Shown one piece after another: positions 668 to 60,359 of a stretch of 64,000 nt of DNA. The translations under genes and the position numbers were made by a program. Every line of letters starts with the position of its first letter. Position 1 is the first letter of the stretch. The stretch comes from Escherichia phage UGJNEcP3: sequence record OV876907, one strand, 5' to 3'. Under the pieces are notes generated by a model. It made no database searches. It saw only the letters and a list, made by a program, of their open reading frames with translations, and was not told the DNA's origin.

Positions 668-1282
668 TCAGTAAGAAAGAACGGAAAGATTCCAAATGGT
701 GTAATTATTCCATTTAGGATTTCTCTCAATAGAGTCTACGCGCAGCGTAGTTCCCGCAGGGAACATCATCTCATCTTCATCATTAATTAATTGTAAGTTT
801 GCTACACGTGTAGATTCAGGAAATGCGCCTGGGAACTCTTCAGGGGGCGCAGCACATAACATTTTAAAGATTTCTTCCTGATAATTGTACACAAATGGTG
901 CATCATTAATACAAAAGATATTAAATGTGCCGTAGAAGTTATAAGATGCGAAATTCCTTGCCACGTTGAAGTCTTTAGAGAAGCTCATCACGCGGTCGAA
1001 TTCAATTACCGCACCTACACACATTGTGGACTCTAGATACCTCATAGTCTTTTTAGATATGCCGCGATAGAGCTTATCAGGCACTACAGAAGTCAGGTTC
1101 TTACGAATAATTTTGTTCAGAGTTTCCTGGATAGAATCAGGTTTATTTTCCATACACTGCCAGAGCGTGCTCTGTTCTAAATCAGAATACACCTCATCAA
1201 TTTCTATCTGAGTATTCTCACGGAAATCATCGCATTTGACATTGTTGATAAATTCTGCTAATTTATAGCTTGGATATAACAT
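668..1282 (-). CDS. ADP-ribosyltransferase, ModA/ModB-like (paralog 1)
   Basis: R-S-E type motifs: LYRG, SFS, E-D-E; tandem paralog of next ORF; position before soc/56 as for T4 modA/modB. Confidence 0.55.
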   Translation of the reverse strand: MLYPSYKLAEFINNVKCDDFRENTQIEIDEVYSDLEQSTLWQCMENKPDSIQETLNKIIRKNLTSVVPDKLYRGISKKTMRYLESTMCVGAVIEFDRVMSFSKDFNVARNFASYNFYGTFNIFCINDAPFVYNYQEEIFKMLCAAPPEEFPGAFPESTRVANLQLINDEDEMMFPAGTTLRVDSIERNPKWNNYTIWNLSVLSY

Positions 1283-1336
1283 ATTATTCTCCTCAGTTGA
1301 TAGAAAGATAGTACCACAAGCCTCCTTGCCTGTAAA

Positions 1337-1906
1337 CTAAAAATCCAACATTTTTAAATGAATTATTTTGTACTCGATTTCGTATGGATCCCTTTTGACG
1401 GTTTCGATTGCAACAATCTCAAATCGCGATAGACTAGAGACCATGAACTCGCATTCAGTTTCAACCATATCATAGAGGTCGATACGAGATTCATCTATTT
1501 CAAGCTCATCCACATTCCCTGCAAGAACAAGGTCGATAGCATGATTGTAGTAGTCGAAAATGAACGGTGCATTCCTGAGACTTAAAATGGTTTTGGTTCC
1601 ATACTCCCATGCCCCTGCGAACTGACGAGCCTGAGAGTATTGTGTACTAAAAGAAGTAACTCGACCAGGAGACCATTGACACCCTACTGAAAGGAGCTCT
1701 AATTGCTCAAGTTCTCTGGGGGTAATCCCGCGATACAACTCTACTGGAACCGCTGAAGTAACATGCTTGCGAACCAGTTTGTCGAGGTCGTAATGGAAGT
1801 TAGGGTCCTTTTTAGCGTCCAGACATTTTTCTAAAAGATTCTGTTCGTGTTTTGAGAATTTGGAATTGATTCGGTCTTGATAAAGACATTTTTGTTCGAT
1901 GTTCAT
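1337..1906 (-). CDS. ADP-ribosyltransferase, ModA/ModB-like (paralog 2)
   Basis: LYRG, SFS, E-C-E motifs; alignable with 668..1282. Confidence 0.55.
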   Translation of the reverse strand: MNIEQKCLYQDRINSKFSKHEQNLLEKCLDAKKDPNFHYDLDKLVRKHVTSAVPVELYRGITPRELEQLELLSVGCQWSPGRVTSFSTQYSQARQFAGAWEYGTKTILSLRNAPFIFDYYNHAIDLVLAGNVDELEIDESRIDLYDMVETECEFMVSSLSRFEIVAIETVKRDPYEIEYKIIHLKMLDF

Positions 1907-2871: not shown

Positions 2872-3021
2872 TATGTTTTCCTCTTCTTAGTTTACCTACT
2901 AAAGGACCATCCGGAATTTTATTTTCTTGGATGTATTTCTCGTTTTCTTCCATCATTTTACTACCAATTTTAAGAAGCAAATCCAGTGCCTCTTTAGCAT
3001 GTTTTTCAGCCTCTTCAGTAG

Positions 3022-7571: not shown

Positions 7572-7612
7572 ATCAATCTCGCTTCATGAAGGCATTAAAA
7601 ATCTGGTCGTCA
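7569..7612. repeat. 44-bp direct repeat copy B
   Basis: see copy A. Confidence 0.7.
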
Positions 7613-8007
7613 ACTGAATATACAGGGGTTTCCAGAATTTTCAACAGGCTGTTTTTGATGTACTTGCTAGGGATATCCATATTAACGCAGTCGTTCAATT
7701 CGTTGTTAGGGATGATGTCTTTAAATTCAAACCCTTCAAACTCAACCTTGTCAGGAATACCATCAGCGAAAAAATAAACCAATTGGTGCATTGTATTGCA
7801 TGAAAATAATTTAGACTTCACTGCAATAAGTTCTTGCCAATGGTTTAATTCTCTATTAAGAAGTTTATGGGCAAATACAATCCTATCATCACTATCAACA
7901 ATAAAATAGCCCAGGTATTGATGGTCATCGTTCCAATACATCCTGTATGCCTGGGCATTTGGATTTTTACAACGAAGTTTTTTGATAACCAAATTTCTGT
8001 TAATCAT
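7573..8007 (-). CDS. hypothetical protein (144 aa from internal ATG), C-terminal VDDQIFNAFMKRD
   Basis: track ORF extends to 8094, overlapping the upstream gene; ATG at 8007 has SD AGGTGA. Confidence 0.4.
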   Translation of the reverse strand: MINRNLVIKKLRCKNPNAQAYRMYWNDDHQYLGYFIVDSDDRIVFAHKLLNRELNHWQELIAVKSKLFSCNTMHQLVYFFADGIPDKVEFEGFEFKDIIPNNELNDCVNMDIPSKYIKNSLLKILETPVYSVDDQIFNAFMKRD

Positions 8008-8008
8008 T

Positions 8009-8302
8009 TTATTCACCTGTAACTTCTTTAACGATATTTTTGTTATCGAAATTAGCATCGCAGTACAGAACATAGTTATACTGCATAACACCACCTGAAG
8101 CTAATTGGTCTGACACTTCTTTAGCCATATCAGGGCGGTCACGTTTAGTGATGTTCATGATATCAGCATAAATCTGATGTTCGACTGATTCTTGGTCTGC
8201 AGTCATAGACCATTCACAAAGGTCTTTATCCAATCCGGCTGTAACTGGAGCTGTACCACATGATGCTACTGTAAGGATTGCTGCGATTAATAACTTTTTC
8301 AT
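8009..8302 (-). CDS. secreted/lipoprotein (signal peptide MKKLLIAAILTVASCG)
   Basis: track ORF starts further upstream (non-ATG); ATG at 8302 with SD GAGGAG gives classic lipobox; possibly Spackle-like by position (weak). Confidence 0.5.
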   Translation of the reverse strand: MKKLLIAAILTVASCGTAPVTAGLDKDLCEWSMTADQESVEHQIYADIMNITKRDRPDMAKEVSDQLASGGVMQYNYVLYCDANFDNKNIVKEVTGE

Positions 8303-23714: not shown

Positions 23715-23906
23715 TTAATCAAAGTACTCGTAGACAAACCATGCCGGATTTCTATTTGACATGATTTTATCATATTCTGACTTAAAAGCATTTCGGAGAT
23801 ATTCTTCAGTAACAAGATGCTCATCTCCAGAGAAGTTGTTAACTAAAACGTATCTCTTTATTTCTGGAAAGGCCAACAAATGCTGGCCTGTTATAAAATC
23901 ACTCAT
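23715..23906 (-). CDS. hypothetical protein (63 aa)
   Basis: ORF on dominant strand. Confidence 0.35.
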   Translation of the reverse strand: MSDFITGQHLLAFPEIKRYVLVNNFSGDEHLVTEEYLRNAFKSEYDKIMSNRNPAWFVYEYFD

Positions 23907-24589
23907 TATGAAGCATCCTTTAATTTACAATTATCAAAGTGCCATCGTTTCATAATGTTGTTAGAGCCAATTTTATCACAATATGGGCACTTTACAGTTG
24001 GTCTGCTTTTAGCTTTTGCAGATTGTTTGCTTTTCATAGCCTGTTTTGCTTCGTCAGACCTAGAATTAAGGGCTATAGAAATTTTATCCCTTGTTTCTTG
24101 GCTATGAGTTTTTCCGAACATAGGGTTGTTCTCAGGCAAATATGTACCATTTCTTATATTACTCTGACGAATTTTTTCTATATGTTCTTTAGATTTATTT
24201 CTTAGCTCTAGGCATTTAGATTTCTTTCTAGTTTTAAAAAGGTTTTCATAAAATGAATACGGTCTATTTTTAGCAGCTATACTCTGTTTAAGTCTGGTTT
24301 CCTCTTTTATAAAAGGTGCGGCATTACCTCCTAAAGAAATATTATATGTAAGAGGGTTCTTTATAAATTCCTCATTGACTATAATTCTTTCCATTTGGAT
24401 AGCCTCTTCTCTGGTATCAAAATTATAAAGTATTTCCTTTCTATGATTTTCCAAACCATATTTTTTAATAGAAGCTTTAATATATAAACCAGAGCCCATA
24501 TACGAATCTTTAATATTTTCAGTACTATGTATCCCTACATAGTACTTATTATTAACTAAATTTATTATTTTGTAAACAAGATGTCTCAT
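23906..24589 (-). CDS. GIY-YIG homing endonuclease (Seg-like)
   Basis: N-terminal YKIINLVNNKYYVGIHS...YMGSG...R...E...NISLGGN; basic C-terminal DNA-binding region; free-standing between 45 and 46. Confidence 0.65.
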   Translation of the reverse strand: MRHLVYKIINLVNNKYYVGIHSTENIKDSYMGSGLYIKASIKKYGLENHRKEILYNFDTREEAIQMERIIVNEEFIKNPLTYNISLGGNAAPFIKEETRLKQSIAAKNRPYSFYENLFKTRKKSKCLELRNKSKEHIEKIRQSNIRNGTYLPENNPMFGKTHSQETRDKISIALNSRSDEAKQAMKSKQSAKAKSRPTVKCPYCDKIGSNNIMKRWHFDNCKLKDAS

Positions 24590-43770: not shown

Positions 43771-44049
43771 TTATAGCTTTTTAAGCTTACGACAATAAGA
43801 ATAGAACACGTCGTTAAAATTATATTCAACCCAATTCCTCTGTATAGGCGAGGTAATGGAAAGCATATAATGTGCTTTAATTAAATCCATTCCATTTTTA
43901 TTAGGGCATTCTTTATTATTAGCATTATACGTCGCTGCTACAACTTCTATCTCTCTTTTGTAAGCCGCATCATCCATGATGGGCGAAAGAACAATATAAG
44001 AGATGGCCACAGCGAACGCTAGAATTAAAATCTTTGAATTTAGGTCCAT
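43771..44049 (-). CDS. secreted protein (92 aa), possibly RI-like lysis-inhibition factor
   Basis: signal peptide; position immediately upstream of tk; weak resemblance only. Confidence 0.35.
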   Translation of the reverse strand: MDLNSKILILAFAVAISYIVLSPIMDDAAYKREIEVVAATYNANNKECPNKNGMDLIKAHYMLSITSPIQRNWVEYNFNDVFYSYCRKLKKL

Positions 44050-44056
44050 AGTACCC

Positions 44057-44629
44057 TCAACTCGTTATTTCTATCCAGTGCTTCCTGCACAATGACACGT
44101 AAGAATCGTTGCCACCTATAGAAACTTGGGCTCCGTCCTTAATTGCGACACCATCTTGGACCCTAGCAGTCATAGTAGCTTTACGGCCGCAATGGCACAC
44201 ACCTTTGTACTCAACGAGTTTATCTGCCGTAGCGAGTAATTCAGCAGAACCAGGAAACAGTTTACCCTGAAAATCAGTTCTTAGCCCATAACACATAACT
44301 GGAACATTATAATTGTCTACTATCTTTGCCAGTTGTTTTATCTGTGCAGGTTCTAAGAATTGTGCTTCATCCACAAACACACAGTGGATATCTTTTTGAG
44401 ATTCAGCCCAACGATAGAACTCGTATAGGTCCATATCTGGAGTCACCCCATTAGCCTCTTGACTAATCCCTATACGAGACGAAATGGTATGGCTTGATTC
44501 TCTATTATCTATCGCAGGCTTTAAAAGGAGTACGCCCATACCGCGTTCTTTGTAGTTATGAGCTGCCGTTAGCAATGAAGCGGTCTTACCGGAATTCATT
44601 GCTGCATAATGAAAATAAAGTTGGGCCAT
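44057..44629 (-). CDS. tk: thymidine kinase
   Basis: Walker A AAMNSGKTASLL; C-terminal zinc-binding CHCGRKAT...C; 190 aa. Confidence 0.85.
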   Translation of the reverse strand: MAQLYFHYAAMNSGKTASLLTAAHNYKERGMGVLLLKPAIDNRESSHTISSRIGISQEANGVTPDMDLYEFYRWAESQKDIHCVFVDEAQFLEPAQIKQLAKIVDNYNVPVMCYGLRTDFQGKLFPGSAELLATADKLVEYKGVCHCGRKATMTARVQDGVAIKDGAQVSIGGNDSYVSLCRKHWIEITS

Positions 44630-44798
44630 ATTACCTTCTTAAAGACTATTTACATAAGCAATTAATTCATTTTCCTTTTTAGAAAACTCATCCTCTTCGT
44701 CACCTCTCCAGTCCCAATCCAGAGAGTTATCAAATTCACATTCTGTGTTGAGTTCCATAAGCTCATGGATAAGCTCAAACAATTTATCTTTCTGCTCT

Positions 44799-45254
44799 TT
44801 ACTTAGGCTCATAATCTACCACCACCAAATTAATATCAGGAGTAAACAAATTAATCAATTGATAAACCTTATCCCAATCACCACCGGCAATACCACAACC
44901 AATACGAGGGATATAAATTCTCGGTTTAAACAAAAGACCTTTTGCTTGTTGATTTAATTCTATCATACAGTTTACTAAAGCACTGTAATCAAGATTAGGA
45001 CCTGGTTCATATTGCGTATAAAGATTATAGCAAATTTGGCCGTTATTGCCTGTGGCTTTAGTAAATGTTCCAAGTTTTGCTGCATCACCTAAATAGGTGG
45101 CTTCTCTATCAATAGCAAGAATAGGTGAATACGCCTTAGCCAATTGACCTGCTACACCTGAACCCATAGTATGGAAACAGTTACACCCATGAGCAACGTT
45201 ATTACCTTGAAGAAACAGGGCGACGATATCGCCCTTAATATAATCAATAATCAT
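44799..45254 (-). CDS. macro-domain-like protein (ADP-ribose binding/processing)
   Basis: GDIVALF...NVAHGCNC...GSGVAGQL resembles macro-domain glycine-rich motifs. Confidence 0.45.
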   Translation of the reverse strand: MIIDYIKGDIVALFLQGNNVAHGCNCFHTMGSGVAGQLAKAYSPILAIDREATYLGDAAKLGTFTKATGNNGQICYNLYTQYEPGPNLDYSALVNCMIELNQQAKGLLFKPRIYIPRIGCGIAGGDWDKVYQLINLFTPDINLVVVDYEPK

Positions 45255-45607
45255 TTAGAGTTTAGCCCTCGGTTGTAAGAGTCAACGAGTCTGTCTACCA
45301 TAGACGCGCACATTTCTTTGTACTTTTTATCAGATGGAACACATTCAGTGACGTTTAGACGTTGCTCGTATCTTTTAGAAAGAGTTTTCTCTTTCATTCG
45401 ACGATGCTCGACGTCGTTCTGCCCATCTTTAAAAGCAGCTGTTATTTTTGAACTGAATTCAATAACACATTCAGTATTACTCGGATGACAATAATCTTTT
45501 GCTGTACGGGTGGCATACTCGACAATTGAATTATTTGTATCATCAACCTGTGATGCTAATACTCCCGGAGCAATCAACATAAGCGCTATAGTCATCTGTT
45601 TAATCAT
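45251..45607 (-). CDS. secreted protein (118 aa)
   Basis: signal peptide MIKQMTIALMLIAPGVLAS. Confidence 0.45.
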   Translation of the reverse strand: MIKQMTIALMLIAPGVLASQVDDTNNSIVEYATRTAKDYCHPSNTECVIEFSSKITAAFKDGQNDVEHRRMKEKTLSKRYEQRLNVTECVPSDKKYKEMCASMVDRLVDSYNRGLNSK

Positions 45608-46147
45608 TTAATATACCGCCTCAAACATCTTTTTAGATTTTAGGTAATTGGCCTTTTCTAGAACTTCGGAAGCATATTTACTGCCTGCTTTGACATTCCA
45701 GCCCGCATTATAAGAAGCAATCGCTTTTCTCAGGTCACCTTTGTGAACATTAATCCAATAAGACAGTTCAATGTAGGCCCAAGAGGCACTGTTCTGTCGT
45801 TTTTGGACCATACGAATTATTTCTTTGTCAGACATCTTCCAACCTACCTGTTGAACACGACTTCTTAACGTAGGCAAGTAATTTTGGAACATGCCATAAG
45901 CATGGTGCTTATCTTTATTTAAACCCTGATTAATTCCGGCGGATGATTCCTGCCATAGTAATCCGGCCATAATATATCCTAATCCTTTTTGATTAGGGTT
46001 TTCTTTGAACTTTCCCGACTTTTGGTATTGTTCACCGAAAGCATACGCATAATGTAAATTATCGAGTTGTTCATTACTGAAAGTAGGCTCTACGCTATGG
46101 GCAGACATACTAACTGTCAATAGTAAAGTGGCTAATACTTTTTTCAT
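45608..46147 (-). CDS. periplasmic lytic-transglycosylase-like protein (SLT domain)
   Basis: signal peptide; WQESSAG, GMFQ, SYNAGW motifs typical of SLT family. Confidence 0.5.
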   Translation of the reverse strand: MKKVLATLLLTVSMSAHSVEPTFSNEQLDNLHYAYAFGEQYQKSGKFKENPNQKGLGYIMAGLLWQESSAGINQGLNKDKHHAYGMFQNYLPTLRSRVQQVGWKMSDKEIIRMVQKRQNSASWAYIELSYWINVHKGDLRKAIASYNAGWNVKAGSKYASEVLEKANYLKSKKMFEAVY

Positions 46148-46159
46148 GAGACCTCATTA

Positions 46160-46618
46160 TTAAAGATAGATTACTTTCGTGCTGGTTTTACCTTCTAAAC
46201 GTTTAGAGTTAACAAATGCCATACGACATTTAAGGGAATATCCTTTATCAGGATGTTTACGATCTACGGTCATACCTAGCCATAAGGTTTTATCGGTAAT
46301 TTCGAGACGCAGTGGGCGATACACCTTACCTGGGACAATTTCAGATTCTACGTCAGGAAGAGGCTCCTGGATTAAAAATTCATGGATTTCTTTAACATGG
46401 TTATGGAGCTTCTTGAACAAAGAGAAAACATATTTTTCGTCAATTTCACGTTGGATAGCACGGTCCAACAAGTGATTAGAGTACTTAATAAAGAAAGCTG
46501 GGACACCGCTCTTAATGGCGGCTTTTTTGATGGACGCGTTAAGTTCACGAAATTCGGTTTCGAACTGACGACGTAATTTGTTGCGGCGGATGAATACTTC
46601 TGAATTAATTTCTGACAT
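46160..46618 (-). CDS. regB: endoribonuclease RegB
   Basis: 152 aa; EVFIRRNKLRR...HLLDRAIQREIDE...RLEITD..LWLG... matches T4 RegB as recalled. Confidence 0.8.
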   Translation of the reverse strand: MSEINSEVFIRRNKLRRQFETEFRELNASIKKAAIKSGVPAFFIKYSNHLLDRAIQREIDEKYVFSLFKKLHNHVKEIHEFLIQEPLPDVESEIVPGKVYRPLRLEITDKTLWLGMTVDRKHPDKGYSLKCRMAFVNSKRLEGKTSTKVIYL

Positions 46619-46646
46619 TTTATAATCTCCTGTAGTTTATAGGTCT

Positions 46647-46675
46647 ATAGTATCATGTCTACAGGAGATGTAAAC
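46647..46675 (-). promoter_or_regulatory. promoter-like element GTTTAC-N17-TACTAT flanked by 9-bp inverted repeat
   Basis: ctcctgtag (46627-46635) / ctacaggag (46659-46667); upstream of regB. Confidence 0.5.
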
Positions 46676-46680
46676 TGCTT

Positions 46681-46959
46681 TTAGTATTTTTCTTCAGGTT
46701 GGAAAACGGAACGACAGGCCCACATGGATGCTTCTTTCAAGCGTTCGATTGCCGTACGAATCTGGGCGAGACGTTCATGAGTGAGGTCGAATTCTTCATC
46801 ACTCATTTTATCGACACCTGAGCATGTAAAGGCTTCAACGTATTCTTCTTCTAATGCTTTAAAGATTAAGCCTAATCGAACTTCAGCATCTTTAATGGCA
46901 TTCACTTTACCGATTTTATCGTCGGTATGCGGCTTGTAACCTTTGATATCTTCAATCAT
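46681..46959 (-). CDS. hypothetical protein (92 aa)
   Basis: ORF. Confidence 0.4.
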   Translation of the reverse strand: MIEDIKGYKPHTDDKIGKVNAIKDAEVRLGLIFKALEEEYVEAFTCSGVDKMSDEEFDLTHERLAQIRTAIERLKEASMWACRSVFQPEEKY

Positions 46960-47174
46960 TTTACTTCCTCATCAGATGCAATATCATATTCTACAAAACG
47001 AAGGCCATCGTATCCACCACTAACAGAGATATACGTAGTCGGGTAAACAATTTCTTTACCGTTCCATTGGCCACCGTCCCAACACTCCATAAAGCCTTGT
47101 TCACCCTGTTCGTGGAACCAGTCAACAAACATCTTCAGAGCTTCATCAGAGCCTTCAATTGTCAATTTAGACAT
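46956..47174 (-). CDS. hypothetical protein (72 aa)
   Basis: ORF. Confidence 0.4.
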   Translation of the reverse strand: MSKLTIEGSDEALKMFVDWFHEQGEQGFMECWDGGQWNGKEIVYPTTYISVSGGYDGLRFVEYDIASDEEVK

Positions 47175-47463
47175 ATTTTTTCCAGTCAGAAATCATATGA
47201 ATCTCTTGGTCATACGTCAAGAGACTGCGAGTAATAATACCCTTACACGGCCCAGAGATGAACTCGAGAGTGAAGTAAGGAACCTGTTTCATTAATCGGA
47301 TGCTTGGGGCATGACATCTAAAACGAGAGCCCTTAAAGGGCCCTGACATGAATACATATTCTAATGGATAGAAATAAGCATATTCGAAATTTGCAGTAAG
47401 GTCCTCTCTTCGAACCTTACGTGAGAAATAACAGAACTCAAAAAGCTCTTCATCAGTCATCAT
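47167..47463 (-). CDS. hypothetical protein (98 aa)
   Basis: ORF. Confidence 0.4.
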   Translation of the reverse strand: MMTDEELFEFCYFSRKVRREDLTANFEYAYFYPLEYVFMSGPFKGSRFRCHAPSIRLMKQVPYFTLEFISGPCKGIITRSLLTYDQEIHMISDWKKYV

Positions 47464-47987
47464 TGCATTCCTATCACAAAGAACAGTGGCAGAGGTTTAG
47501 AACCCTGGCACATAAATTTGTTAATCATTACCTGGTAAGCTTCATAGAACTTATCCATCGATGGAAGGCGCATTGGCTCTTCGATAATAATCAATAATCG
47601 AGTAACTGATAGACCACGATACTTATGGAAGTTATCTTCGTCTAAAAATGAACGCACGGTATCATATACAACAAATCCAGGACCTTCTACTTGAAGGTGT
47701 GGTTGGGCCTTAGAAACCCTTTTTATTATATTACAGATTTCTCGTGAGCGATGCGAAGAACTTGACATAACAATCACATCATTACCCTTGGAAACCCAAT
47801 CAGCTGCGAACTGAGCAAGGGCACTTGTTTTACCTGTTTGACGCCCGCCGTCAAGTCGAAGAGTACCAAACTCTTGCATTCTTGAAGTGGGTTCGTACCA
47901 GGTATATTGGTCTGAGTCTAAACGTTCAATGGCGCGTTCAGCGAAGGCGTGCATTAAGGTTAGATAAATGGGAGTTAAAAATTTCAT
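47460..47987 (-). CDS. P-loop protein (175 aa)
   Basis: Walker A-like GGRQTGKTS. Confidence 0.45.
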   Translation of the reverse strand: MKFLTPIYLTLMHAFAERAIERLDSDQYTWYEPTSRMQEFGTLRLDGGRQTGKTSALAQFAADWVSKGNDVIVMSSSSHRSREICNIIKRVSKAQPHLQVEGPGFVVYDTVRSFLDEDNFHKYRGLSVTRLLIIIEEPMRLPSMDKFYEAYQVMINKFMCQGSKPLPLFFVIGMQ

Positions 47988-48147
47988 AATGGTCTCTTAG
48001 TTGTGGGGCCGTTCCTTGGCACATAATTCAACCATGTATCCGAATGTAAACCCCTTACCGCACTCGGGCTCGACCTTATTACAGGTAGGGAAAGGTCCAT
48101 CACTCAGAGGACGCGACGTTCATGAGGAGAGGGTCGGTTTGCCTTTA

Positions 48148-48447
48148 TTAGAAAGAACCAGAACCTCTAATTGTGTTCTGGCGACCTTTATTTTCTAATT
48201 CGGAGTGGTCGATTTCATATGCTTGTGCTACGCCAAAGGCCTTTTTAACTTTAGCTAAAGAACCTTTAGATGTAACAATATTAAAAGTATTACCTTTGGT
48301 AAAATCAACAAAATCGACTTGTACGCCCTGTTTACCGAGGCTTGCTACAATAGCATCAACATATTCTTGGTCTAAATTGCCTTGAACTCCAATTTGAAAT
48401 GCTTTAGGAGCTTTGGCTTCTGTGATAAATTCTTGATAAGTTTTCAT
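48148..48447 (-). CDS. internal-protein-like capsid cargo (CTS MKTYQEFITEA)
   Basis: N-terminal capsid-targeting sequence shared with T4 IPI/IPII/IPIII. Confidence 0.55.
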   Translation of the reverse strand: MKTYQEFITEAKAPKAFQIGVQGNLDQEYVDAIVASLGKQGVQVDFVDFTKGNTFNIVTSKGSLAKVKKAFGVAQAYEIDHSELENKGRQNTIRGSGSF

Positions 48448-50900: not shown

Positions 50901-51350
50901 TCAAAAGAGCGAATCTAAAACCTTAAACATCGACGGGCCCATGACATATTCCCATTGCGGACGTTTAATCAAGGCAAAAGCATCAAATTCAGGAATAGTA
51001 CGACCATCAGGGAACGTATGGTAAGCTGTACATTTGCAATCCTTGAACTGCTCGTGTTCCACAGGCACTGTATATAAGAACAGATGTAGATTCTTATTGC
51101 TTGAATATTTGAACTCACCTAGGTCTTTCAGGAATGCAGGATCGTATGCTGTGAATCCAATCTCTTCTTCGGTTTCGCGCATTGCCGCTTGAATAGGCTC
51201 TTCGCCTGGTTCGACATGACCCTTAGGAATGTCCCATTTATGACGCATGTTCTCTGGATTACGAGAGCCTGTTACACGGCCCATGACCAGTTCTTTATCA
51301 ACGGTCATGAATAAAATACCTGCCGATAATTCCTTAGCTTTCTTACTCAT
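50901..51350 (-). CDS. nudE: Nudix hydrolase (NudE-like)
   Basis: Nudix box GHVEPGEEPIQAAMRETEEEIG; internal ATG 51350 preferred over track start. Confidence 0.7.
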   Translation of the reverse strand: MSKKAKELSAGILFMTVDKELVMGRVTGSRNPENMRHKWDIPKGHVEPGEEPIQAAMRETEEEIGFTAYDPAFLKDLGEFKYSSNKNLHLFLYTVPVEHEQFKDCKCTAYHTFPDGRTIPEFDAFALIKRPQWEYVMGPSMFKVLDSLF

Positions 51351-60201: not shown

Positions 60202-60276
60202 TGGTATCCCGCCCTGGGATCGAACCAGGACCGCAAACTTAGAAGGATCGTATGCTATCCATTACACCAGCGGGAC
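60202..60276 (-). tRNA. tRNA-Arg (anticodon TCT)
   Basis: 75 nt incl. encoded CCA; acceptor GTCCCGC/GCGGGAT, T-arm CCTGG-TTCGATC-CCAGG, anticodon loop CTTCTAA; folded by hand. Confidence 0.75.
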
Positions 60277-60281
60277 ATAGT

Positions 60282-60359
60282 TGGTGACCCGGACCAGATT
60301 TGAACTGGTAACCTTTCCCTTATGAGGGGACTGCTGCTAACCAATTGAGCTACAGGGCC
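60282..60359 (-). tRNA. tRNA with anticodon CAT (Met, or Ile if C34 is modified)
   Basis: 78 nt incl. encoded CCA; T-arm ACCAG-TTCAAAT-CTGGT; anticodon loop CTCATAA; acceptor stem with one mismatch; folded by hand. Confidence 0.65.

What the first reader, a model, noticed from the sequence alone, without database searches (positions are those of the whole stretch)
44799..45254. Macro-domain-like protein downstream of tk
The GDI...VAHGCNC...GSGVAG motifs resemble macro-domain phosphate-binding loops. Phage macro domains have been linked to counter-defence against ADP-ribosylation-based or NAD-derived signalling systems.
Basis: partly seen in the sequence, partly recalled or inferred. Interest (0 to 1): 0.5.

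Follow-up and report, generated by a model that had tools for sequence, protein, structure and literature searches.

The report
Phage macrodomain gene tk.4 (adfM)
This is a real macro-domain gene, the counterpart of phage T4 tk.4/adfM, which most likely strips ADP-ribose off phage DNA to defeat the bacterial DarTG2 defence; the gene is already annotated and its T4 counterpart was characterised in 2025, so it is correct but ordinary.

Summary
The ORF at 44799..45254 (minus strand, 151 aa) is real and is a macrodomain. Pfam Macro scores 31.1 bits against a cut-off of 22. The AlphaFold2 model has pLDDT 96.7, and its best solved-structure matches are TARG1, Poa1p, BT1257 and DarG.

The window is 100% identical over the 4 kb tested to Escherichia phage UGJNEcP4, a Dhakavirus. 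There the CDS is annotated "phosphatase". It is the syntenic ortholog (54% identity; regB-vs.1-vs-tk.4-tk) of T4 tk.4.

A 2025 preprint renamed T4 tk.4 adfM. It was the only transposon-screen hit under DarTG2, and a clean knockout sensitised T4 to DarTG2.

One nuance: this lineage is not DarG-like in detail. The column holding the catalytic lysine of DarG and TARG1 holds an invariant glutamine (Q81), as in SCO6735 and BT1257. In SCO6735 that glutamine is essential for hydrolysis of thymidine-linked ADP-ribose on DNA. PhiKZ "AdfM" is a separate, lysine-bearing, DarG-like lineage.

No biochemistry exists for the Tk.4 lineage, and this ortholog is untested.

Novelty: already known. Interest: low.

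The parts
44799..45254 (-). tk.4/adfM ortholog: CDS for a standalone 151-aa macrodomain protein (stop codon included)
   Evidence: ORF list. Pfam Macro 31.1 bits. PHROG 335 at 4.6e-65. Identical annotated CDS CAH1616710.1 'phosphatase' in OV877765.1. 54% identity over full length to T4 Tk.4. AF2 pLDDT 96.7.
45225..45233 (-). Codons G8-D9-I10, at the end of strand beta1; G8 is nearly invariant. The Asp is at the position that contacts adenine in other macrodomains (own knowledge, not tested here).
   Evidence: Sequence; conservation; secondary structure.
45177..45197 (-). Codons V20-AHGCNC-26. H22, G23 and N25 are invariant. H22 and N25 align with SCO6735 H24 and N27, and N25 aligns with PhiKZ AdfM N23.
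   Evidence: SCO6735 residue numbering was checked against chain 5e3b. PMC13309987 reports that mutating a conserved active-site Asn of PhiKZ AdfM reduces activity and lists an N23A construct.
45147..45164 (-). Codons G31-SGVAG-36: macrodomain loop 1 (the GxG motif). G31 and G33 are invariant even across DarG, TARG1 and SCO6735.
45012..45014 (-). Codon Q81 (CAA): an invariant glutamine in the column that holds the catalytic Lys of DarG (K80) and TARG1 (K84), and Gln85 of SCO6735.
   Evidence: Invariant in 68 homologs. Alignments. PMC9411070 reports that SCO6735 Q85A and Q85E lose activity on ADPr-thymidine DNA.
44880..44909 (-). Codons P116-RIGCGIAGG-125: macrodomain loop 2 (diphosphate-binding loop), near-identical to PRIGCGLAGG of BT1257 and SCO6735.
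45251..45254 (-). ATGA overlap: the stop of vs (TGA) shares bases with the start of tk.4 (ATG). This implies co-transcription and probable translational coupling.
   Evidence: Sequence; ORF coordinates; the same arrangement in T4, where vs ends at 3004 and tk.4 starts at 3001 of L002.

Best explanation
The gene encodes a small standalone macrodomain enzyme, the Dhakavirus ortholog of T4 Tk.4/AdfM. It is expressed with the pre-replicative genes regB, vs.1, vs and tk. Its most likely job is to act as an 'orphan antitoxin'. When a host DarTG2 system releases DarT2, that toxin ADP-ribosylates thymidines in single-stranded phage DNA and blocks replication. The macrodomain would bind the ADP-ribose through loop 1 (G31-S-G33 with N25) and loop 2 (G119-CGIAGG-125), then hydrolyse the thymine-ribose bond, releasing free ADP-ribose and restoring the template. 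The active site is of the Gln type found in SCO6735 and BT1257 (H22, N25, Q81), not the Lys type of DarG and TARG1. Catalysis is therefore probably lysine-independent and water-mediated, as proposed for SCO6735. What is shown: the macro fold, membership of the TARG1/ALC1-like class, orthology and synteny with T4 tk.4, and, from the literature, the T4 genetic phenotype. What is inferred: that this ortholog has the same phenotype, that the chemistry is removal of ADP-ribose from thymidine in DNA, and that Q81 is catalytic.
For: Macro family and fold. Orthology: 54% identity over the full length to T4 Tk.4, PHROG 335 at 4.6e-65, and conserved gene order regB-vs.1-vs-tk.4-small ORF-tk with neighbours at 45-70% identity. 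JS98 and JS10 records label the same gene tk.4. T4 genetics: tk.4 was the only significant hit under DarTG2, and a clean knockout was sensitised to DarTG2. T4 lacking adfA and adfN stays DarTG2-resistant, which implies a further anti-DarTG2 factor (PMC11825919). Precedent for the chemistry in a Gln-type macrodomain: SCO6735 removes DarT-made ADP-ribose from thymidine in vitro and in cells, and Q85A/E abolish this (PMC9411070). Q81 aligns with SCO6735 Q85 and is invariant in 68 homologs. A second phage macrodomain, PhiKZ gp104, removes DarT2 marks from DNA in vitro (PMC13309987).
Against: No enzymatic assay exists for any member of the Tk.4 lineage; the preprint infers the mechanism from structural similarity. 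This protein is only 54% identical to T4 Tk.4, and its loop 2 (GCGIAGG) differs from T4's (GAGIGKG). The DarG catalytic lysine is absent. The two lysines that position DNA in SCO6735 (K34, K89) align with S32 and G85 here, and the long mobile loop of SCO6735 and BT1257 is missing. The T4 result comes from one preprint and one DarTG2 system.
Confidence: 0.7

Rival explanations
1. It is an ADP-ribose-1''-phosphate phosphatase, or an O-acetyl-ADP-ribose deacetylase, acting on small soluble ADP-ribose derivatives. This is what the database names 'phosphatase', 'Poa1p-like' and 'O-acetyl-ADP-ribose deacetylase' imply. It would then clear by-products of RNA repair or NAD metabolism rather than repair DNA.
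For: Annotated 'phosphatase' (PHROG 335) or 'Poa1p_like' in many records. Yeast Poa1p is among the best structural matches, with TM 0.80, and among the sequence matches. [quoted passage not shown]
Against: The names are transferred by homology, not tested. The only functional data for this orthologous group are the DarTG2-specific phenotype. The closest solved relatives by sequence are BT1257 and SCO6735, and SCO6735 is a DNA and protein de-ADP-ribosylase.
Confidence: 0.1
2. It erases ADP-ribose from proteins or RNA. It would either tune the phage's own Alt/ModA/ModB modifications, or reverse host ADP-ribosyltransferase defences other than DarT2, such as CmdT acting on mRNA.
For: The same window carries two 'RNA polymerase ADP-ribosylase' genes, modA and modB, at 668..1282 and 1337..1906. 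SCO6735 and TARG1 also act on protein substrates.
Against: T4 tk.4 was not required in the no-defence control, and was a hit specifically in the presence of DarTG2. CmdTAC gives strong defence against wild-type T4, which carries tk.4 (PMC11618068), so Tk.4 does not neutralise CmdT effectively. SCO6735 was inactive on 2'-OH-linked RNA ADP-ribosylation; on 5'-phosphate-linked nucleic-acid ADP-ribosylation the same paper reports it inactive in its results but active on RNA phosphate ends in its discussion (PMC11833690).
Confidence: 0.1
3. It degrades NAD-derived immune signals, such as the Thoeris cyclic ADP-ribose isomers or His-ADPR, and so acts as an anti-Thoeris factor.
For: There is only a general prediction that Macro domains could act on cyclic ADP-ribose-type molecules (PMC9503650).
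Against: No experimental link was found in the literature searched. The active site matches enzymes that cleave ADP-ribose from macromolecules. The section of the T4 study read here did not list Thoeris among the defence systems tested, so the idea is untested rather than excluded.
Confidence: 0.05

Closest known systems
T4 Tk.4 = AdfM (anti-DarT factor Macrodomain; bioRxiv 10.1101/2025.11.20.689424)
   Same: 54% identical over the full length. It occupies the same position between vs and tk, with the same ATGA overlap with vs. It belongs to the same PHROG (335) and has the same H-G-C-N and T-Q motifs.
   Different: Loop 2 is GCGIAGG here, which is the family consensus, and GAGIGKG in T4. T4 has three small ORFs between tk.4 and tk, whereas this phage has one. 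The anti-DarTG2 phenotype has been shown only for T4.
Streptomyces coelicolor SCO6735 (PDB 5E3B) and Bacteroides BT1257 (PDB 2FG1/2AFC)
   Same: These are the closest solved relatives by sequence, at E 6e-9 with the single sequence and 3e-20 with the profile. They share the His-x-x-Asn motif, Gln at the catalytic-Lys column, and PRIGCGLAGGxW in loop 2. SCO6735 hydrolyses thymidine-linked ADP-ribose on DNA and needs that Gln.
   Different: Identity is only 25-28%. The phage protein lacks the 6-residue mobile loop after the Gln. It also lacks the two DNA-positioning lysines: SCO6735 K34 aligns with S32 and K89 with G85. These relatives are cellular, not phage, proteins.
DarG antitoxin of DarTG2 (Mtb 5M3I, T. 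aquaticus 5M31/5M3E)
   Same: Same fold and class, with Foldseek probability 1.0 and TM 0.75-0.77. It presumably acts on the same substrate, ADPr-thymidine in single-stranded DNA.
   Different: The catalytic Lys80 is replaced by Gln. There is no C-terminal DarT-binding domain and no adjacent darT gene. The NCBIfam DarG equivalog model scores 21.3 bits against a cut-off of 250.
PhiKZ gp104 'AdfM' (Cell Rep 2026, PMC13309987)
   Same: It is a standalone phage macrodomain that counters DarTG2, and its removal of DarT2 marks from DNA is biochemically shown.
   Different: It belongs to a different lineage. It keeps the DarG lysine (FPTKDNWR) and matches Mtb DarG at 9e-25. Against the window protein it gives only a 40-residue local BLASTP match at E 8e-4. 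The shared name does not mean orthology.
Human TARG1/OARD1 (PDB 4J5R) and yeast Poa1p (PDB 6LFR)
   Same: These are the best structural matches, with TM 0.79-0.85 for TARG1 and 0.80 for Poa1p.
   Different: The TARG1 Lys84/Asp125 dyad aligns with Q81 and A123 here. Sequence identity is 20-23%.

Membership tests
Macro domain superfamily (Pfam PF01661) | Profile score above the curated gathering score | tested here: met
   31.1 bits against a cut-off of 22, E 2.5e-7, model positions 2-117 of 118.
Macro domain superfamily (Pfam PF01661) | Three-layer alpha/beta/alpha macro fold | tested here: met
   AF2 pLDDT 96.7 and pTM 0.91. Foldseek found 148 PDB matches at E<=0.001; the 50 best listed are macrodomains or proteins designed on that fold, with TM up to 0.85.
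Macro domain superfamily (Pfam PF01661) | ADP-ribose-binding loops: a GxG loop 1 with a conserved Asn, and a Gly-rich loop 2 | tested here: met
   N25, G31-S-G33 and G119-C-G121-IAG-G125. G31, G33, P116 and G119 are invariant even across DarG, TARG1 and SCO6735.
T4 Tk.4/AdfM orthologous group | Full-length similarity and shared phage protein family | tested here: met
   54% identity over 153 columns, E 2.6e-64; PHROG 335 at 4.6e-65.
T4 Tk.4/AdfM orthologous group | Conserved position between vs and tk in a T-even genome | tested here: met
   The order regB-vs.1-vs-tk.4-small ORF-tk-rI holds in both phages.
T4 Tk.4/AdfM orthologous group | Protects the phage from DarTG2 | not testable with these tools
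   Shown only for T4 by transposon screen and knockout. It needs a deletion mutant of this phage or a complementation test.
Gln-type TARG1/ALC1-like macrodomains (SCO6735/BT1257) | Gln in place of the catalytic Lys, plus the His-x-x-Asn motif | tested here: met
   H22, N25 and Q81 align with SCO6735 H24, N27 and Q85, and all three are invariant in the family.
Gln-type TARG1/ALC1-like macrodomains (SCO6735/BT1257) | DNA-positioning lysines K34 and K89, and the long mobile loop | tested here: not met
   K34 aligns with S32 and K89 with G85, and the 6-residue loop insertion is absent.
DarG antitoxin (NCBIfam NF048014 equivalog) | Score at or above the curated equivalog cut-off | tested here: not met
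   21.3 bits against a cut-off of 250, matching only model positions 3-149 of 338. PADLOC DarG scores 26.9 bits over positions 3-146 of 329.
DarG antitoxin (NCBIfam NF048014 equivalog) | Catalytic lysine (K80) | tested here: not met
   Q81 occupies that column.
DarG antitoxin (NCBIfam NF048014 equivalog) | C-terminal DarT-binding domain and an adjacent darT gene | tested here: not met
   The protein is 151 aa and consists of the macrodomain only. Its neighbours are vs and a 57-aa ORF.
Poa1p-like ADP-ribose-1''-phosphate phosphatases | Fold and sequence similarity to yeast Poa1p | tested here: met
   Foldseek TM 0.80 to 6LFR; profile E 2.9e-13 to 6LFU.
Poa1p-like ADP-ribose-1''-phosphate phosphatases | Appr1p phosphatase activity | not testable with these tools
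   This needs an enzyme assay. The 'phosphatase' label is transferred by homology.

The most novel reading that the evidence does not exclude
The Tk.4 lineage may be a compact, lysine-independent DNA de-ADP-ribosylase with wider scope than DarG. Like SCO6735, it might hydrolyse both thymidine-linked DNA marks and protein marks, and might also inhibit DarT2 by direct binding. It could then also modulate the phage's own Alt/ModA/ModB modifications. The conserved GC-rich hairpin in its first codons could in turn gate its expression.
Probability: 0.15. Interest if true: 0.45.

Novelty: already known. Interest (0 to 1): 0.22.

Why it matters
Reversing ADP-ribosylation is a recurrent move in virus-host conflict, from coronavirus Mac1 to phage AdfN and AdfM. 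This gene adds one more T-even ortholog to a counter-defence family that gives tblastn matches in about 2,700 deposited phage records. The useful points are practical. The 'phosphatase' annotation is probably misleading. The Tk.4 lineage has a glutamine-type active site like SCO6735, so DarG-derived assumptions about its mechanism may not transfer. Two unrelated macrodomain lineages now share the name AdfM.

Tried and rejected
(1) DarG membership was rejected. The NCBIfam equivalog score is far below cut-off, the catalytic Lys is absent, and there is no C-terminal domain and no darT neighbour.

(2) Orthology with PhiKZ AdfM was rejected. BLASTP gives only a 40-residue local match, while PhiKZ gp104 is clearly DarG-like.

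(3) Accelerated, arms-race-type divergence relative to neighbours is not supported. The 54% identity to T4 lies within the 45-70% range of flanking genes.

(4) A sigma-70 promoter scan of 43900..48300 gave 14 sites against 11.5 +/- 3.3 expected, so it is uninformative.

(5) I looked for an adfA (T4 61.2) counterpart next to the primase gene. The 173-aa ORF at 7573..8094 matched 86 phage records, and every listed match covering most of the ORF is in a phage of the JS98-like (Dhakavirus) group. It has no NCBIfam hit. T4 AdfA itself was not used as a query, so absence is not proven.

(6) The CmdTAC paper contains nothing on phage macrodomains, and T4 is sensitive to CmdTAC.

(7) The large representative-protein search, the metagenome scan and the genome scan were not run, because the question was already settled.

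Full report
**The observation**

The stretch 44799..45254 is exactly one ATG-to-TAA ORF of 151 codons on the minus strand.
- G8-D-I10
- V20-AHGCNC-26
- G31-SGVAG-36

Pfam's Macro model (PF01661) matches at 31.1 bits. The curated cut-off is 22, E is 2.5e-7, and the match covers model positions 2-117 of 118.

PHROG 335, labelled 'phosphatase', matches at 4.6e-65. By sequence, the nearest solved structures, in order of E-value, are Bacteroides BT1257, Streptomyces SCO6735, yeast Poa1p, Mtb DarG and human TARG1.

- 'Downstream of tk' is true only in + strand coordinates. Both genes are on the minus strand, so the macro gene is transcribed before tk.

**Where the window comes from**

A 4-kb segment around the gene is 100% identical to Escherichia phage UGJNEcP4 (OV877765.1). 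This is a Dhakavirus, a JS98-like T-even phage. In that record the ORF is CDS CAH1616710.1, 'phosphatase'.

JS98 and JS10 records call the same gene tk.4. A tblastn search finds relatives in 2,720 phage records. They include T-even-like phages of Escherichia, Klebsiella, Salmonella, Vibrio, Acinetobacter and Aeromonas, and unrelated myoviruses such as PAK_P1-like Pseudomonas phages.

**Orthology with T4 tk.4**

The T4 protein between vs and tk is 54% identical over its full length. The order of genes along the transcribed strand is the same in both phages: regB, vs.1, vs, tk.4, small ORF(s), tk, rI.

Neighbouring proteins are 45-70% identical between the two phages. The macro gene is therefore not unusually diverged.

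In both phages the vs stop and the tk.4 start overlap as ATGA. Here the next 57-codon ORF starts 14 nt before the tk.4 stop. The genes are thus packed into one co-transcribed block. A sigma-70 consensus scan of the region was no better than chance.

**Fold**

An alignment of 68 homologs gave an AlphaFold2 model with mean pLDDT 96.7 and pTM 0.91. Foldseek against the PDB returned these as the best matches, all at probability 1.00:

| Match | PDB | TM-score |
|---|---|---|
| TARG1 | 4J5R | 0.79/0.85 |
| Poa1p | 6LFR | 0.80 |
| BT1257 | 2FG1 | 0.73 |
| Mtb DarG | 5M3I | 0.77 |
| T. aquaticus DarG | 5M31 | 0.75 |

Coronavirus Mac1 structures follow.

**What the T4 ortholog does**

A bioRxiv preprint of November 2025 (HIDEN-SEQ, 10.1101/2025.11.20.689424) infected a DarTG2-expressing host with a saturated T4 transposon library. 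tk.4 was the single significant hit. [quoted passage not shown]

A clean tk.4 knockout became sensitive to DarTG2. The authors renamed the gene adfM, for anti-DarT factor Macrodomain. They inferred, from structural similarity to Mtb DarG, that it removes ADP-ribose from DNA.

This fits earlier work showing that T4 lacking both adfA and adfN (gene 30.3, a NADAR enzyme specific for guanosine marks) stays resistant to DarTG2. That result implied another factor (PMC11825919). No enzymology of Tk.4 is reported.

**Active-site anatomy**

Fourteen residues are invariant in the 68-member alignment: H22, G23, N25, G33, A35, G62, N77, Y79, Q81, P116, I118, G119, G121 and G125.

I aligned the window protein with T4 Tk.4, BT1257, SCO6735, TARG1, both DarG macrodomains and PhiKZ gp104. 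The comparison sequences were taken from the alignments printed by the PDB searches, and PhiKZ gp104 from the paper's methods.

The column that holds the catalytic lysine of DarG (K80) and TARG1 (K84) splits the set in two:

| Residue at that column | Proteins |
|---|---|
| Gln | window protein (Q81), T4 Tk.4, BT1257, SCO6735 (Q85) |
| Lys | Mtb DarG, T. aquaticus DarG, TARG1, PhiKZ gp104 |

The TARG1 partner Asp125 aligns with A123. H22 and N25 align with SCO6735 H24 and N27. Loop 2 is nearly identical to that of SCO6735 and BT1257 (PRIGCG-I/L-AGG-x-W).

The SCO6735 study (PMC9411070) reports four relevant things:
- This Gln-type enzyme removes DarT-made ADP-ribose from thymidine in DNA, in vitro and in cells.
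- Q85A and Q85E abolish that activity.
- A water-mediated, lysine-independent mechanism is likely.
- A catalytically dead mutant still inhibits DarT.

A precedent therefore exists for the proposed chemistry with exactly this active-site type. There are also differences. SCO6735's DNA-positioning K34 and K89 align with S32 and G85 here. The six-residue mobile loop after the Gln is absent from the phage proteins.

**Not a DarG, and not the PhiKZ AdfM**

NCBIfam's DarG equivalog model scores 21.3 bits against a cut-off of 250 and covers only the macro part of the model. PADLOC's DarG model gives 26.9 bits over positions 3-146 of 329. The protein has no C-terminal DarT-binding domain and no darT neighbour.

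PhiKZ gp104 was also named AdfM, in Cell Rep 2026 (PMC13309987), and was shown to remove DarT2 marks from DNA in vitro. It matches Mtb DarG at 9e-25. Against the window protein it gives only a 40-residue local BLASTP match at E 8e-4.

Two macrodomain lineages have thus been recruited by phages against DarTG2, and both carry the same name.

**Mechanism and rivals**

My best explanation, at about 0.7, is an orphan-antitoxin DNA ADP-ribosylglycohydrolase. It would restore thymidines modified by DarT2, using a Gln-type active site.

- **Small-molecule phosphatase or deacetylase.** This is what the annotations imply, and it rests only on transferred names and on fold similarity to Poa1p.
- **Protein or RNA eraser.** The phage's own modA and modB ADP-ribosyltransferase genes are in this window at 668..1906. 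However, T4 tk.4 matters only in the presence of DarTG2, and T4 remains sensitive to the mRNA ADP-ribosyltransferase system CmdTAC.
- **Anti-Thoeris role.** This has no support in what I found, but it is untested.

These roles are not mutually exclusive.

**Verdict**

The feature is already annotated, and its function was assigned in T4 in 2025. It is therefore a correct but ordinary finding.

The residual value lies in three points. The active site is of the Gln type, like SCO6735. The lineage is distinct from PhiKZ AdfM. No biochemistry yet exists for the Tk.4 lineage.

Noticed in passing
window 45217..45235 (- strand), codons 7-12 of tk.4: A GC-rich 8-bp hairpin, AGGGCGAT-ATC-GTCGCCCT, is followed by a U-rich tract and starts 15 nt after the start codon. 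It is kept almost base for base in T4, in a second Tequatrovirus and in Krischvirus FL04. In FL04 the closing U-G pair becomes U-A. The stem uses GGC, GTC and GCC codons. It is absent from the Karamvirus, Jiaodavirus, Slopekvirus and Biquartavirus orthologs. It may be an attenuator or translation element, or a by-product of the G-D/I-A codon palindrome. The fold z-score of the 81-nt context is only -1.37.
   Followed up: partly
literature: T4 Tk.4 compared with PhiKZ gp104: The name AdfM is used for two non-orthologous phage macrodomains. The T4 Tk.4 lineage has Gln at the catalytic column and resembles SCO6735 and BT1257. PhiKZ gp104 has Lys and resembles DarG.
   Followed up: yes
L002 3001..3468 (T4 tk.4) compared with window 44880..44909: T4 Tk.4 has an atypical loop 2, PRIGAGIGKG. 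The window protein keeps the family consensus, PRIGCGIAGG. The A123 and G124 positions are at least 90% conserved in the family.
   Followed up: partly
window 668..1282 and 1337..1906 (- strand): Two adjacent genes are annotated 'RNA polymerase ADP-ribosylase' (modA/modB type). The phage therefore carries its own ADP-ribosyltransferases about 43 kb from the macrodomain gene.
   Followed up: no
window 50901..51350 (- strand): A Nudix hydrolase gene lies next to the endolysin gene, at the position of T4 e.1. From my own knowledge, T4 NudE.1 hydrolyses ADP-ribose, so it could consume the product released by the macrodomain. This was not tested.
   Followed up: no
window 7573..8094 (- strand): A 173-aa ORF (GTG start; annotated from a later ATG as 144 aa) lies next to sp. 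It matched 86 phage records, and every listed match covering most of the ORF is in a phage of the JS98-like (Dhakavirus) group. It has no NCBIfam hit. It sits where T4 has the 61.x genes, including adfA, but no T4 similarity was seen.
   Followed up: partly
window 23906..24589 (- strand): A gene annotated 'homing endonuclease' is inserted between the SbcC-like gene 46 and the rpbA/gene 45 block.
   Followed up: no
window 60202..60359 (- strand): Two adjacent tRNA genes are annotated in the identical record, tRNA-Arg and tRNA-Met.
   Followed up: no
window 45251..45607 (- strand), vs: This is the gene immediately upstream and translationally coupled to tk.4. Its T4 ortholog was the strongest conditionally required gene in minimal medium in the same HIDEN-SEQ study. 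Here it is only 45% identical to T4 Vs.
   Followed up: no
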